Source: a virus
Reading direction: 5' to 3' (one strand)
Virus genome (UHGV): UHGV-0075871
DNA: 37,149 nucleotides
Shown here: piece after piece, positions 9,095 to 9,817 of the stretch
Layout: every line of letters starts with the position of its first letter
Position numbering within the stretch: the stretch's first letter is position 1
The notes under the pieces: generated by a model
What the model saw: the letters and a program-made list of their open reading frames with translations, nothing else
Told to the model about the DNA's origin: nothing
Database searches by the model: none
Position numbers and translations under genes: made by a program

Positions 9095-9368
9095 CCTGCA
9101 ACTGGCAGTTAACGGTGAATATTTCGACCAGATGAAGTCAGGCGAGAAAACGGAAGAGTATCGCCTGTGTAATGACTACTGGAATAAGCGAATTATGTTC
9201 CGGGAGTATGACCGCCTGATTATCACAAAGGGATATCCGAAGCGCGACGATTCCAGCCGTAGAATAGACGTCCCGTATGACGGCTATGAAATCAAGACAA
9301 TCACACATCCCCACTTCGGCGATAAACCGGTAAAGGTGTTCGCGATAAAGGTGAATATTGATGGCTAA
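9087..9368 (+). CDS. ASCH/PUA-like small protein
   Basis: 93 aa; N-terminal LAVNGEYFDQMKSGEKTEEYR resembles ASCH-type phage proteins (K.HELKI.PEYFE...GKKT.E.R pattern). Confidence 0.45.
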   Translation: MANLQLAVNGEYFDQMKSGEKTEEYRLCNDYWNKRIMFREYDRLIITKGYPKRDDSSRRIDVPYDGYEIKTITHPHFGDKPVKVFAIKVNIDG

Positions 9369-9699
9369 ATCAGCAGCAGAGCGCAAAGCCGCTCAGAGAG
9401 CCAGACAAGCTGAATCCGGTGTGCGTAAGCTGGAAATTGTGCTTGATGCTCAGGAAATTGAAATGCTGGAGCGTAACTGTGCCACGCGTCGCCCCGGGCG
9501 TGCGCCTTACGAATTTGGTGAGTATATAGCGTTACTGATCCACCAGGATGATGCACGCGTGCGCGGGCGTATAAAATCGATCAGCAGAAAATGTTGCGGT
9601 AAGTGCGGCGAGAGAGTTCCAGTTAATTCATGCCCGTGTAATGGTGACTCGCAATGCTGGGTGACTAAAGGCTGGCATGAAACGAAATTAATAGTGTGA
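9358..9699 (+). CDS. Cys-rich putative zinc-binding regulator (candidate late-gene regulator)
   Basis: 113 aa; C-terminal CCGKCGERVPVNSCPCNGDSQCW; last early gene before a terminator and the packaging genes; stop codon lies inside the palindrome GTGACATGTCAC. Confidence 0.5.
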   Translation: MMAKSAAERKAAQRARQAESGVRKLEIVLDAQEIEMLERNCATRRPGRAPYEFGEYIALLIHQDDARVRGRIKSISRKCCGKCGERVPVNSCPCNGDSQCWVTKGWHETKLIV

Positions 9700-9748
9700 C
9701 ATGTCACGAGTAGATTATGCATGATGAATTTGATGGGTTTTGAATACT

Positions 9749-9774
9749 GCCGCCAACTATGGCGGCTTTATTTT
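9749..9774 (+). terminator. rho-independent terminator upstream of the terminase genes (tR-prime-like position)
   Basis: GCCGCC-AACTAT-GGCGGC followed by TTTATTTT. Confidence 0.65.
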
Positions 9775-9817
9775 GCATGGTACTATTACCACAACGGTAA
9801 CTATTACCACGGTGGTT

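What the first reader, a model, noticed from the sequence alone, without database searches (positions are those of the whole stretch)
9358..9817. Candidate Q-like antitermination unit: Cys-rich regulator, palindrome, terminator, terminase operon
The last early gene encodes a 113-aa protein with a C-terminal Cys cluster (CCGKCGERVPVNSCPCNGDSQCW). It is followed within about 50 nt by a strong intrinsic terminator (9749..9774) and then the late operon. This copies the lambda Q, pR-prime, tR-prime layout, so late expression may depend on antitermination at this terminator. A tandem repeat CTATTACCAC (9783..9792 and 9801..9810) lies between terminator and terS and may belong to the late promoter or packaging recognition.
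Basis: inference. Interest (0 to 1): 0.5.

Follow-up and report, generated by a model that had tools for sequence, protein, structure and literature searches.

The report
Phage regulator with boundary palindrome sites
The small cysteine-rich protein encoded just before this prophage's DNA-packaging genes is not a relative of the lambda Q antiterminator; it is predicted to be a ribbon-helix-helix DNA-binding protein that travels through several phage groups together with its own 12-base palindrome, and what this protein-site pair does is still unknown.

Summary
The window is an epsilon15/phiV10-like (Uetakevirus) prophage.

- **The protein.** The 112-aa protein (9361-9699) belongs to the epsilon15 gp49 / N15 gp46 family (PHROG 536). 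It has no Pfam family and no similarity to any Q protein. Its confident AlphaFold model has a basic helix, a ribbon-helix-helix domain and a C-terminal Cys knuckle.
- **The palindrome (new here).** GTGACATGTCAC (9696-9707) overlaps the gene's stop codon. GTGAC-NN-GTCAC does the same in 194 of 210 gene copies from at least five phage lineages, and recurs as 2-3 exact copies per genome. In this window the second copy is at 30013, again between a stop codon and a terminator. It is most likely the protein's binding site.
- **The "tandem repeat".** It is a pair of prophage-repressor operators (ATTACC-N5-GGTAAT) in front of terS, already annotated in epsilon15.
- **No pR'-like promoter.** The spacer between gene and terminator is the remnant of a deleted small gene.
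- **Q elsewhere.** N15 and ZF40 carry this family plus a genuine Q-like gene.

My best guess (about 0.4) is a boundary, roadblock or repressor function rather than Q-like antitermination (about 0.15). Neither has been tested.

The parts
9361..9699 (+). Gene for a 112-aa protein of the epsilon15 gp49 / N15 gp46 family (PHROG 536). It has an N-terminal basic helix, a ribbon-helix-helix domain, a long helix and a C-terminal Cys knuckle. It is the last gene of the rightward early operon and is translationally coupled to ORF 9087-9368.
9696..9707 (.). 12-bp perfect palindrome GTGACATGTCAC overlapping the TGA stop codon. It is the inferred binding site of the protein.
   Evidence: Exact copies at 9696 and 30013. 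GTGAC-NN-GTCAC overlaps the family gene's stop codon in 194 of 210 gene copies. 1 of 12 positions is variable, against 78 of 120 in the flanks, among 24 distinct N15-like sequences. The RNA hairpin is negligible at -1.2 kcal/mol.
9717..9743 (+). 8-codon remnant (MHDEFDGF*) of a 70-aa gene (phrog_1541) that sits between the palindrome and the terminator in about a third of close relatives.
   Evidence: Relatives have either a 128-nt or a 314-nt spacer. Translation and family assignment.
9749..9774 (+). Intrinsic terminator ending the rightward early unit.
   Evidence: -16.2 kcal/mol, z -5.2. Annotated as a rho-independent terminator in epsilon15. Conserved in epsilon15, 65FD, TL-2011b and Klebsiella phi13.3; absent in BUCT554.
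9785..9801 (.). Operator-like site O1 (ATTACCACAACGGTAAC) for the prophage repressor.
   Evidence: The motif occurs 13 times against 1.0 expected, including OL and OR. The equivalent epsilon15 site is annotated as protein_bind 'repressor'. The repressor is a homologue of SPC32H Rep.
9803..9819 (.). Operator-like site O2 (ATTACCACGGTGGTTAT) overlapping the terS Shine-Dalgarno sequence (GGTGG).
   Evidence: The counterpart is conserved in epsilon15 and BUCT554 but degenerate in Klebsiella phi13.3.
9821..10414 (+). terS, the first gene of the late/packaging unit.
   Evidence: Pfam Terminase_2, E 1e-29; phrog_51.
10411..11880 (+). terL.
   Evidence: Annotated as terminase large subunit in relatives.
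30013..30024 (.). Second exact copy of the palindrome. It overlaps the TGA stop of ORF 29720-30016, the last rightward gene of the structural operon.
   Evidence: The equivalent epsilon15 copy is at 19517 and overlaps the gp18 stop.
30025..30049 (+). Intrinsic terminator directly after the second palindrome, at the convergent junction with the leftward antirepressor region.
   Evidence: Sequence AGGCCGC-TTTC-GCGGCCT plus TGTTTTT. Folding -17.2 kcal/mol, z -2.6.
3704..4288 (-). Prophage repressor (SPC32H Rep type), the protein expected to occupy O1 and O2.
   Evidence: PDB 5D50, E 4e-42. phrog_8.

Best explanation
**Shown by tool results**
- The 112-aa protein belongs to an uncharacterised phage family (epsilon15 gp49 / N15 gp46, PHROG 536).
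- The family has a conserved basic N-terminal helix, a predicted ribbon-helix-helix domain and a conserved Cys cluster.
- It is always embedded at or near the end of an early operon.
- A 12-bp palindrome, GTGAC-NN-GTCAC, is physically tied to the gene and usually overlaps its stop codon as G-TGA-C.
- The palindrome is under selection at the DNA level and recurs 2-3 times per genome with the same central dinucleotide.

**Inferred**
- The palindrome is the protein's binding site. It can be read as two inverted 7-bp half-units, as used by the RHH repressor omega, so two RHH dimers may bind, possibly joined through the Zn knuckle.

**Most likely mechanism (inference, about 0.4)**
- Once early transcription has produced the protein, it occupies these sites. 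In Uetakeviruses they lie at the ends of transcription units, just upstream of intrinsic terminators and next to variable cargo, SOS or antirepressor modules.
- There it acts negatively. It would work as a roadblock, insulator or repressor that stops RNA polymerase crossing the boundary in either direction.
- Because one site covers its own stop codon, it may also limit its own synthesis. This would resemble LacI bound to O3 at the 3' end of lacI.
- The late terS operon would then be switched not by this protein reading through the terminator, but by loss of the prophage repressor from the two operators (9785-9819) directly in front of terS. That would require a weak or activator-dependent promoter, which has not yet been located.
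For: **Fold**
- AlphaFold2 pLDDT 90.7.
- Weak Pfam hits to RHH_5, RHH_1 and RepB-RCR_reg only.

**Gene-site linkage**
- The palindrome overlaps the stop codon in 194 of 210 gene copies (70 distinct contexts). These come from Uetakeviruses, Pantoea AH07, Yersinia P2-like phages and N15-like phage-plasmids. It lies within 20 nt in ZF40 and others, and 140-341 nt downstream in marine Vibrio-type phages.
- Protein identity between these groups falls to 34-40%.

**Selection on the site**
- 0 of 12 positions are variable against 39 of 120 in the flanks inside N15-like repA.
- 1 of 12 against 78 of 120 at the gene 46 stop.

**Copy number**
- epsilon15, N15 and ZF40 each have exactly 3 exact copies, and the window has 2.
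- About 0.04 copies per genome are expected by chance.

**Boundary position**
- In epsilon15 and the window every copy follows the pattern stop codon, palindrome, 1-42 nt, intrinsic terminator, read in the direction of one of the flanking genes. Two of the three epsilon15 sites are at convergent junctions.
- Sequence diverges immediately beyond the sites into different cargo genes.

**Link to SOS modules**
- The site lies 6 nt upstream of the -35 element of a LexA-box promoter in Klebsiella phi13.3 and Enterobacter BUCT554.
- It lies about 100 nt upstream of one in Yersinia phages.

**Prior knowledge**
- Characterised RHH proteins are overwhelmingly repressors (Arc, Mnt, CopG, omega, MetJ, antitoxins).

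**Late-operon control by the repressor**
- Operators sit directly before terS in every Uetakevirus examined.
- The repressor is SPC32H Rep-like. That repressor binds palindromic sites as a tetramer (PMC9638917).
Against: - There is no experimental evidence that the protein binds the palindrome. The link rests only on co-location and conservation.
- A roadblock placed upstream of a good terminator looks redundant.
- In N15, AH07 and the 314-nt Uetakevirus variants, ordinary genes follow the palindrome in the same operon. A tight block would silence them.
- In ZF40 and N15 some copies are intragenic, not at boundaries.
- No sigma-70-type promoter could be found between the terminator and terS. 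Read-through of the terminator therefore remains a simple way to express terS. That keeps a positive role alive.
- Two family members (L195, L197) have no palindrome within 400 nt.
Confidence: 0.4

Rival explanations
1. Q-like (functional analogue) antitermination. The protein binds the palindrome just upstream of the terminator, engages RNA polymerase as it passes or pauses, and makes it read through 9749-9774 into terS. This would couple late gene expression to completion of early transcription.
For: - The gene is the last gene of the early operon and has a Cys cluster.
- Its putative DNA site lies between the gene and a strong terminator, which is followed at once by terS.
- No Q-, N- or other antiterminator homologue was found among the early genes.
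- No recognisable promoter lies downstream of the terminator.
- The palindrome lies upstream of a terminator, in the direction of a flanking gene, at every Uetakevirus site.
- In Vibrio phage K303 a copy lies 31 nt upstream of terS.
- A weak profile match links the C-terminal helix plus Cys knuckle to the RNA-polymerase-binding TraR/DksA-type zinc finger: E 0.035-0.047 for the top three PDB hits.
Against: - No similarity to lambda-, 82- or 21-type Q proteins in sequence or fold.
- No conserved promoter accompanies the site, whereas Q needs a promoter-proximal paused complex. The apparent promoter in the window is an accident of a deletion.
- The family coexists with true Q-like genes in N15 and ZF40.
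- Copies at convergent junctions would drive antisense transcription into terL or into the antirepressor region.
- BUCT554 and L195 lack the terminator.
- To my knowledge no RHH protein has been shown to act as an antiterminator.
Confidence: 0.15
2. Classical promoter regulator, Arc/Mnt-like. The protein represses, or activates, promoters next to its sites. The main candidates are the LexA-controlled promoters of antirepressor or cargo genes that follow the gene in several lineages. In this window the adjacent promoter has been lost, so the site at 9696 would be a relic or would serve only autoregulation.
For: - The palindrome ends 6 nt upstream of the -35 element of a strong LexA-box promoter (TTGACT-17-TATACT) in Klebsiella phi13.3 and BUCT554.
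- LexA-box promoters lie about 100 nt downstream in Yersinia P2-like phages.
- In N15 a LexA box lies 295 nt downstream, and another copy lies upstream of the antirepressor operon.
- In P22 the RHH proteins Arc and Mnt control the antirepressor gene (established knowledge).
Against: - In the window and in epsilon15 no promoter adjoins any copy.
- Copies inside genes (ZF40, N15) are not at promoters.
- The link to SOS modules is not universal: ZF40 has no strict LexA box near its sites.
Confidence: 0.2
3. Architectural, MatP-like role. The protein bridges its 2-3 dispersed sites, looping or condensing the phage genome. Alternatively it interferes with the host MatP/MukBEF system, rather than acting on transcription directly.
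For: - The half-site GTGAC is identical to that of matS (GTGACRNYGTCAC; PMC6907758).
- There are few, dispersed, identical sites per genome.
- The hosts named for the phage and plasmid records carrying the family are all Enterobacterales, Vibrionales or Aeromonadales. From memory, these are the orders that have MatP.
Against: - The spacer is 2 bp, not 3, in every copy. No 13-bp matS-like site occurs in the window.
- There is no significant sequence similarity to MatP: hhalign E 0.07 over 26 columns, and MatP_C is not among the 25 listed Pfam families.
- The protein lacks MatP's four-helix bundle and coiled coil.
Confidence: 0.12
4. The palindrome is not the protein's site. It is bound by a host factor, or it is a recombination or mosaic-boundary signal that happens to be linked to this gene. 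The protein would then bind something else.
For: - The sites mark points where relatives diverge into different cargo genes.
- Binding has not been demonstrated.
Against: - Linkage to the stop codon of this particular gene holds across at least five lineages with 34-40% protein identity.
- Intragenic copies in ZF40 and N15 are not module boundaries.
- A dimeric RHH protein and a perfect palindrome are a natural match.
Confidence: 0.1

Closest known systems
Lambdoid Q antiterminators (lambda Q, Q82, Q21)
   Same: - Encoded by the last gene of the early rightward operon.
- Cysteine/zinc-containing (lambda Q).
- A DNA site immediately follows the gene.
- An intrinsic terminator stands before the late genes.
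   Different: - No sequence or fold similarity.
- 112 aa with an RHH domain.
- No promoter, and so no promoter-proximal pause, is associated with the site.
- The family coexists with real Q-like genes in N15 and ZF40.
- Extra copies of the site lie at convergent junctions and inside genes.
Ribbon-helix-helix repressors (P22 Arc/Mnt, CopG, omega of pSM19035, MetJ, RHH antitoxins)
   Same: - The predicted fold matches.
- Small size and a palindromic target.
- From memory, omega binds 7-bp units containing ATCAC in direct or inverted pairs. GTGAC-NN-GTCAC is two inverted 7-bp units.
- Arc and Mnt control a phage antirepressor, and several sites here adjoin antirepressor or SOS modules.
   Different: - There is an additional conserved basic N-terminal helix and a C-terminal Cys knuckle.
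- The sites lie at the 3' ends of genes or at terminators, not at the protein's own promoter.
- No Pfam RHH model is matched significantly.
MatP / matS (E. coli Ter macrodomain organiser)
   Same: - An RHH protein.
- Identical GTGAC half-sites.
- A small number of dispersed sites.
- The same host orders.
   Different: - A 12-bp site, not 13-bp.
- No four-helix bundle and no coiled coil.
- No significant sequence similarity.
- Phage-encoded and expressed from an early lytic operon.
LacI-O3 roadblock at the 3' end of lacI
   Same: A DNA-binding protein whose site covers the 3' end of its own gene. This offers a precedent for autoregulation through truncated transcripts (cited from memory).
   Different: Purely an analogy. 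LacI is an HTH protein, and no data exist for this family.
TraR/DksA-type C4 zinc finger proteins (F TraR, YbiI, lambda Orf73)
   Same: A long helix followed by CxxCG...P...C. These are the top three PDB profile hits, at E 0.035-0.047. They are common in early operons of temperate phages.
   Different: - The match is not significant.
- The second Cys pair has a different spacing (C-x8-9-C, not CxxC).
- The Pfam model zf-dskA_traR is not among the 25 listed families.
- The helix here is helix 2 of the RHH domain.
epsilon15 gp49, phiV10 and N15 gp46 (PHROG 536, labelled 'transcriptional regulator')
   Same: The window protein is a member: PHROG E 4e-54, 75% identical to epsilon15 gp49 and 97% to the phiV10 protein.
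   Different: I found no experimental work on any member. The label 'transcriptional regulator' appears to be annotation only.

Membership tests
Lambda-type Q antiterminators (Pfam Antiterm, Phage_antitermQ, Phage_antiter_Q) | Sequence or profile similarity to one of the three Q families. | tested here: not met
   Pfam scan of the window protein and 54 relatives at E <= 1: no Q family among the 25 most-shared of 44 families, which is all the output lists; the window protein's own table has one hit, DUF4457. Profile search of all PDB chains at E <= 10: no Q chain.
Lambda-type Q antiterminators | A Q-like fold. | tested here: not met
Lambda-type Q antiterminators | A late promoter carrying the Q-binding element, located between the Q gene and the terminator. 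| tested here: not met
   The only match is a 9-of-12 sigma-70-like site made from the palindrome and a deletion remnant. It is not conserved, and relatives carry a 70-aa gene in that spacer.
Lambda-type Q antiterminators | The protein makes RNA polymerase terminator-resistant. | not testable with these tools
   This needs in vitro transcription, or reporter and Term-seq experiments.
Ribbon-helix-helix (CopG/Arc/MetJ) superfamily | A beta-strand, helix, helix topology that forms a dimeric DNA-binding ribbon. | tested here: inconclusive
   - The model has an extended segment at 20-29, then helices 30-42 and 52-74.
- Pfam RHH models are hit only weakly, in 1-2 of 55 members.
- A dimer could not be modelled.
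Ribbon-helix-helix superfamily | Sequence-specific binding to a repeated or palindromic DNA site. | not testable with these tools
   This is inferred from gene-site linkage and conservation. No binding data exist.
MatP / matS | The MatP domains: an N-terminal four-helix bundle and the MatP_C RHH domain (PF06303, PF17414). | tested here: not met
   Neither is among the 25 listed families, and none is listed for the window protein. hhalign of the family profile against E. coli MatP gives E 0.07 over 26 columns. The protein is only 112 aa and has no helical bundle.
MatP / matS | A 13-bp site GTGACRNYGTCAC. | tested here: not met
   All copies are 12 bp with a 2-nt centre. No matS-like 13-mer occurs in the window, even allowing 1 mismatch.
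DksA/TraR C4 zinc finger | A CxxC-x17-CxxC zinc finger matching Pfam zf-dskA_traR. | tested here: not met
   The PDB profile hits to TraR and YbiI are weak, E 0.035-0.047. The Pfam model is not among the 25 listed families. The Cys spacing differs.
PHROG 536 (epsilon15 gp49 / N15 gp46) | A full-length profile match. | tested here: met
   E 3.9e-54 over residues 1-111 of 112. 693 clusters at 90% identity and 146 at 50% identity are related.
SPC32H/epsilon15 Rep operators (for the 'tandem repeat') | The ATTACC-N5-GGTAAT inverted repeat is shared with OL and OR, and a Rep-type repressor is encoded. | tested here: met
   13 sites against 1.0 expected, including OL (3569, 3631) and OR (4343). The repressor matches PDB 5D50 at E 4e-42. 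The homologous epsilon15 site is annotated as 'repressor'. Binding itself was not tested here.

The most novel reading that the evidence does not exclude
The protein-palindrome pair is a new kind of DNA-tethered modulator of intrinsic terminators. An RHH-zinc protein is recruited by a matS-like 12-bp site just upstream of a terminator. It would decide whether RNA polymerase stops there, and so provide the missing early-to-late switch of epsilon15/phiV10-type phages. The same cassette would have been reused at operon boundaries and inside early genes in N15-like, P2-like and ZF40-like phages.
Probability: 0.15. Interest if true: 0.75.

Novelty: new variant of a known kind. Interest (0 to 1): 0.5.

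Why it matters
**Open question addressed.** How epsilon15/phiV10-type phages, which include Salmonella and E. coli O157 typing and serotype-converting phages, time their late genes is not established in anything I could read. They have no recognisable Q or N protein.

**What this analysis does.**
- It removes a tempting but unsupported Q analogy.
- It shows that terS sits directly behind repressor operators.
- It identifies a conserved protein-site cassette that can be tested directly by EMSA, ChIP-seq, Term-seq and palindrome mutants.

**Wider relevance.**
- The cassette is shared by Uetakeviruses, N15-type phage-plasmids (abundant in clinical Klebsiella), P2-like Yersinia phages and marine Vibrio phages. 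A result in one system would annotate hundreds of 'hypothetical proteins'.
- A site with matS half-sites, in phages of hosts that (from memory) have MatP, is an unexplained coincidence worth one binding experiment.

Tried and rejected
- **Pfam, NCBIfam and PDB sequence searches** with the single protein gave nothing usable.
I used single proteins instead. These mostly returned near-identical relatives.
- **A protein search with E. coli MatP**, meant to build a profile, listed only proteins about 98-100% identical apart from one 69% hit. No useful MatP profile could be made.
- **The AlphaFold-database fold library** was not available. The viral structure library returned only a 46-aa fragment of the same family.
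- **Rfam** found nothing at the locus: no nut- or put-like RNA.
- **RNA-level role for the palindrome** is rejected. The hairpin is -1.2 kcal/mol, no better than shuffles.
- **Packaging (pac/cos) role** is rejected. The gene-site pair also occurs in cos phages, namely N15 and P2-like phages, far from the terminase genes.
- **Search for a sigma-70 promoter between the terminator and terS** found none by the scan. Hand-aligned TTGCAx -35-like elements have 19-nt spacers and are unconvincing.
- **Search for an N-like protein at the start of the leftward operon** found none recognisable.
- **Fusion proteins in the family** (P0226, P0250, P0160, P0121) look like gene-calling or recombination artefacts and gave no functional clue.
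- **Key papers are not held in the library**: Kropinski 2007 on epsilon15 and Kim & Ryu 2013 on SPC32H. What they say about gp49 or late transcription could not be checked.
- **Full-text search for the 12-mers** found nothing relevant.
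Full report
**Context**

The window is a prophage of the epsilon15/phiV10 type (genus Uetakevirus). The region 8200-11900 matches phiV10, TL-2011b, vB_EcoP_PAS61 and E. coli O157 typing phages 9 and 10 at about 90% DNA identity, and epsilon15 at about 80%.

The published phiV10 and epsilon15 records begin at window positions 9700 and about 9775. The gene under study is therefore the last gene of those records and terS is the first, which hides their adjacency.

Gene order in the window:
- a leftward early operon with RecT/exonuclease, AlpA-like and PerC-like genes;
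- the repressor (3704-4288, minus strand);
- a Cro-like gene, then replication O- and P-like genes, a RusA-like resolvase and several unknowns;
- a DUF551 protein, ORF 9087-9368, and the gene in question;
- terS, terL, a cargo slot, the portal-to-tail genes, a leftward antirepressor region, the tailspike and the lysis genes.

**The observation**

All features are real.
- The ORF is best read from ATG 9361, giving 112 aa. Homologues start MAKS. The C-terminus is CCGKCGERVPVNSCPCNGDSQCW.
- The terminator has a 7-bp stem at 9749-9766 plus TTTATTTT. It folds at -16.2 kcal/mol, z = -5.2.
- CTATTACCAC occurs at 9783 and 9801.
- The palindrome of the title is GTGACATGTCAC at 9696-9707, overlapping the TGA stop.

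**What the protein is**

Sequence relatives:
- It matches PHROG 536 over its full length (E 4e-54).
- It matches no Pfam or NCBIfam family.
- It has 693 relatives at the 90% cluster level, all 'hypothetical protein'. It has 146 cluster representatives at the 50% level among 1.8 billion proteins.

An alignment of 55 diverse members shows:
- a basic N-terminal segment (ERKxxQRxR; R8 and R13 are at least 90% conserved);
- a short hydrophobic strand-like segment;
- two helices (PY..EYI..LI..D);
- CxxCG..LP...C...GD..C(W/F), with C79 and C82 invariant and C99 nearly so.

Structure:
- AlphaFold2 with this alignment gives a confident model, mean pLDDT 90.7. Helices span 5-19, 30-42, 52-74 and 104-108.
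- A profile search of all PDB sequences finds no Q protein either. Its three best, non-significant, hits are the RNA-polymerase-binding zinc-finger proteins TraR (two entries) and YbiI, at E 0.035-0.047. I treat that only as a lead.
- Scanning all 55 members against Pfam turns up only scattered weak RHH_5, RHH_1 and RepB-RCR_reg hits.

**Where the family occurs**

tblastn finds it in 152 phage records: Uetakeviruses of Escherichia, Salmonella, Klebsiella and Enterobacter; Pectobacterium ZF40; Pantoea AH07; Yersinia P2-like phages; N15/phiKO2-type phage-plasmids; and Vibrio and Aeromonas phages. It is also in 260 plasmid records, mostly Klebsiella phage-plasmids.

The gene is always embedded in an early operon, usually overlapping the preceding gene. 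It is not always next to late genes:
- in ZF40 it precedes ninB, an HNH gene and a Q-like gene;
- in Yersinia phages it follows the replication gene A;
- in AH07 it precedes xis and int;
- in N15 it lies in the middle of the right arm, 3 kb after N15's own Q-like late activator.

Coexistence with genuine Q-like genes in two lineages argues that the family is not those phages' Q equivalent.

**The palindrome is tied to the gene**

This is the main new result.
- Reading the 3' ends of distant family members showed the same motif on or next to the stop codon:
  - ZF40: TAAttGTGACATGTCAC
  - Yersinia: gTGACGCGTCAC
  - N15: gTGACTGGTCAC
  - AH07: gTGACCTGTCAC
- I assessed 210 gene copies in all fetched loci.
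  - 194 have an exact GTGAC-NN-GTCAC starting one base before the stop codon (70 distinct sequence contexts).
  - 6 have it within 20 nt.
  - 6, of the marine Vibrio type, have it 140-341 nt downstream, after a small overlapping ORF.
  - 2 have a one-mismatch version in place.
  - 2 have none within 400 nt.
- The chance frequency of the motif is about 1e-6 per position.
- The site is selected at the DNA level. Among 24 distinct N15-like sequences, 1 of 12 site positions varies against 78 of 120 flanking positions. At a second, intragenic copy in repA, 0 of 12 vary against 39 of 120.
- As RNA the palindrome is a negligible hairpin, -1.2 kcal/mol. A dimeric DNA-binding protein is the natural reader.
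- I found no mention of these 12-mers in a phage context in the searchable literature.

**Other copies**

Each genome examined has 2-3 exact copies, all sharing the same central dinucleotide within a genome.
- Window: 9696 and 30013.
- epsilon15: 39612 (gp49 stop), 2142 (just after terL and its terminator) and 19517 (overlapping the gp18 stop).
- N15: 39269, 33237 (inside repA) and 28550 (between the repA operon and the antirepressor operon). N15 has no one-mismatch sites.
- ZF40: 14944, 7622 (inside the cII-like gene) and 5125 (inside gp08).

In Uetakeviruses every copy follows the same pattern: stop codon, palindrome, 1-42 nt, intrinsic terminator, read in the direction of one flanking gene.
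- Window 30013 is followed after 1 nt by AGGCCGC-TTTC-GCGGCCT-TGTTTTT.
- The post-terL copy precedes a terminator when read from the convergent cargo gene.

Two of the three epsilon15 sites are convergent junctions. Beyond the sites, relatives diverge into different cargo genes. The window lacks the post-terL copy. That slot holds a 31% GC, 296-aa leftward ORF.

**The spacer between the gene and the terminator**

Among 80 close relatives the spacer comes in two forms. One is the window's 128-nt form. The other is a 314-nt form encoding a 70-aa protein (phrog_1541) with its own Shine-Dalgarno sequence right after the palindrome.

The window retains only ATG CAT GAT GAA TTT GAT GGG TTT TGA (9717-9743), a deletion remnant. 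The one promoter-like match in this spacer, GTGACA-18-CATGAT, is therefore built from the palindrome and the remnant's first codons.

Other relatives fill the spacer differently.
- epsilon15 and 65FD have different sequence there.
- Klebsiella phi13.3 and Enterobacter BUCT554 have a strong LexA-box promoter (TTGACT-17-TATACT overlapping TACTGTTTAAATATACAGTA). It drives a cargo gene, which in BUCT554 is UmuD-like.
- BUCT554 has no terminator before terS.
- L195 goes straight from the gene to operators and terS.

So there is no conserved pR' equivalent, and the terminator is not universal.

**The 'tandem repeat'**

It is two adjacent operator-like sites of the form ATTACC-N5-GGTAAT, at 9785-9801 and 9803-9819. 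The second covers the terS Shine-Dalgarno sequence.
- The motif occurs 13 times in the window against 1.0 expected. The sites include OL (3569, 3631; 62 bp apart), OR (4343), a pair at 6674/6736 (62 bp apart), 12826, 13440 (before the portal unit), 30972, 32020 and 32400 (before the tailspike).
- The 6674 site sits exactly in the spacer of a good promoter, TTGATA-16-TAAAAT.
- The epsilon15 GenBank record annotates the equivalent sites, including the one before terS, as 'repressor' binding sites.
- The window's repressor is a clear homologue of SPC32H Rep (PDB 5D50, E 4e-42). That repressor binds palindromic sites as a tetramer (PMC9638917).
- An operator immediately before terS is conserved in epsilon15, 65FD, Klebsiella phi13.3, BUCT554 and L195.

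Late units in this phage group therefore each start with a repressor operator and end with a terminator. This points to direct repressor control of late units. I could not find a convincing sigma-70 promoter between 9775 and 9820. Where terS transcripts start remains open.

**Mechanism**

Shown:
- the family and its predicted fold;
- the gene-site linkage and selection on the site;
- the copy number and positions of the sites;
- the operator identity of the repeat;
- the absence of any Q similarity and of a conserved promoter.

Inferred:
- the protein binds the palindrome.

My preferred reading (about 0.4) is a negative boundary function. The protein, made at the end of early transcription, would sit on its sites and hinder polymerase passage in either direction, acting as a roadblock, insulator or repressor. 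It would possibly limit its own synthesis too, because one site covers its stop codon, as LacI does at O3. The reasons are:
- the RHH precedent, since nearly all characterised members are repressors;
- the convergent-junction positions;
- the intragenic copies in early genes of ZF40 and N15;
- the adjacency to SOS and antirepressor promoters in several lineages.

Weaknesses of this reading:
- a roadblock upstream of a good terminator is redundant;
- ordinary genes follow the site within the same operon in N15, AH07 and the 314-nt variants;
- no late promoter has been identified, which keeps read-through models alive.

Rivals are Q-like antitermination (0.15), an Arc/Mnt-like promoter regulator (0.2), MatP-like bridging (0.12), and a palindrome unrelated to the protein (0.1).

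**The matS resemblance**

The half-sites equal those of matS (GTGACRNYGTCAC; PMC6907758), and MatP is an RHH protein. The named hosts of the phage and plasmid records are all Enterobacterales, Vibrionales or Aeromonadales, which from memory are the orders that have MatP.

Against this, every phage copy has a 2-nt rather than a 3-nt centre. No 13-mer occurs in the window. Sequence similarity to MatP is not significant (E 0.07 over 26 columns). It is an unexplained coincidence, not a membership.

**Verdict**

- The anatomy is confirmed.
- The Q-like interpretation is not supported by homology, layout or comparative context, although a positive effect on read-through cannot be excluded without experiments.
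- What is really there is a member of an uncharacterised RHH-zinc family with a cognate 12-bp palindrome, next to a terminator and a pair of repressor operators at the start of the packaging operon.
- The protein-site cassette appears undescribed in the literature I could search. It is readily testable.

Noticed in passing
window 31801-31888 (-) and 31908-31984 (-): Rfam matches above gathering score to the C4 antisense RNA (78.6 bits) and the isrK Hfq-binding RNA (74.7 bits). They lie directly upstream of the 245-aa antirepressor gene (31060-31797, minus strand). This resembles a P1 immI-like / Gifsy isrK-like control module inside a Uetakevirus prophage.
   Followed up: no
window 32346-32361: A LexA box (CTGTATATTTATACAG) lies in front of the leftward 91-aa ORF 32067-32342, the homologue of epsilon15 gp19. 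epsilon15 has an equivalent box at 19841. This suggests SOS control of a small antirepressor-like gene.
   Followed up: partly
window 13043-13119 (-): A tRNA-Arg (anticodon TCT) gene sits on the minus strand between terL and the portal unit, inside the late region.
   Followed up: no
window 11904-12794 (-): A 296-aa leftward ORF (phrog_13369, function unknown) at 31-33% GC occupies the cargo slot after terL. Most relatives have a palindrome-terminator pair and other cargo genes there. It looks like a moron or defence-type insertion.
   Followed up: partly
window 5301-5446: Five or six direct repeats of an 18-24 nt unit (CCCAAAAACGGGA...) lie inside the O-like replication initiator gene (5040-5855). 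They are probably the origin iterons.
   Followed up: partly
window 4695-4714 (+): A strong intrinsic terminator (AGACCGCCACCCGGCGGTCT plus TTTC) directly follows the Cro-like gene, in a tR1-like position. No N-like protein was recognisable at the start of the leftward operon, so how the replication genes downstream are transcribed is unclear.
   Followed up: partly
window 3569-3647 and 6674-6752: Repressor operators occur in pairs exactly 62 bp apart, start to start, at OL and again before the RusA-like gene. The 6674 operator fills the spacer of a near-consensus promoter (TTGATA-16-TAAAAT, 6668-6695). The 6736 operator ends 2 nt before the RusA start codon.
   Followed up: partly
L008 1790-1850 (Klebsiella phage ST512-KPC3phi13.3) and L010 1790-1860 (Enterobacter phage BUCT554): A strong LexA-box promoter and a cargo gene (phrog_2100 in the Klebsiella phage, UmuD-like in BUCT554) are inserted between the palindrome and terS. 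In BUCT554 no terminator separates this SOS-inducible unit from terS.
   Followed up: partly
N15 (NC_001901.1) 28550, 33237, 39269; ZF40 (NC_019522.1) 5125, 7622, 14944: Each genome has exactly three identical 12-bp palindromes, some inside coding regions (N15 repA; ZF40 gp08 and the cII-like gp12). One N15 copy is in inverted orientation.
   Followed up: partly
window 4824-5024 (+): A small Cys/His-rich protein (phrog_1081...CKHGHDSERWVYNGHCVEC...) is the first gene after the tR1-like terminator. Its function is unknown. It is another candidate regulator in the early operon.
   Followed up: no
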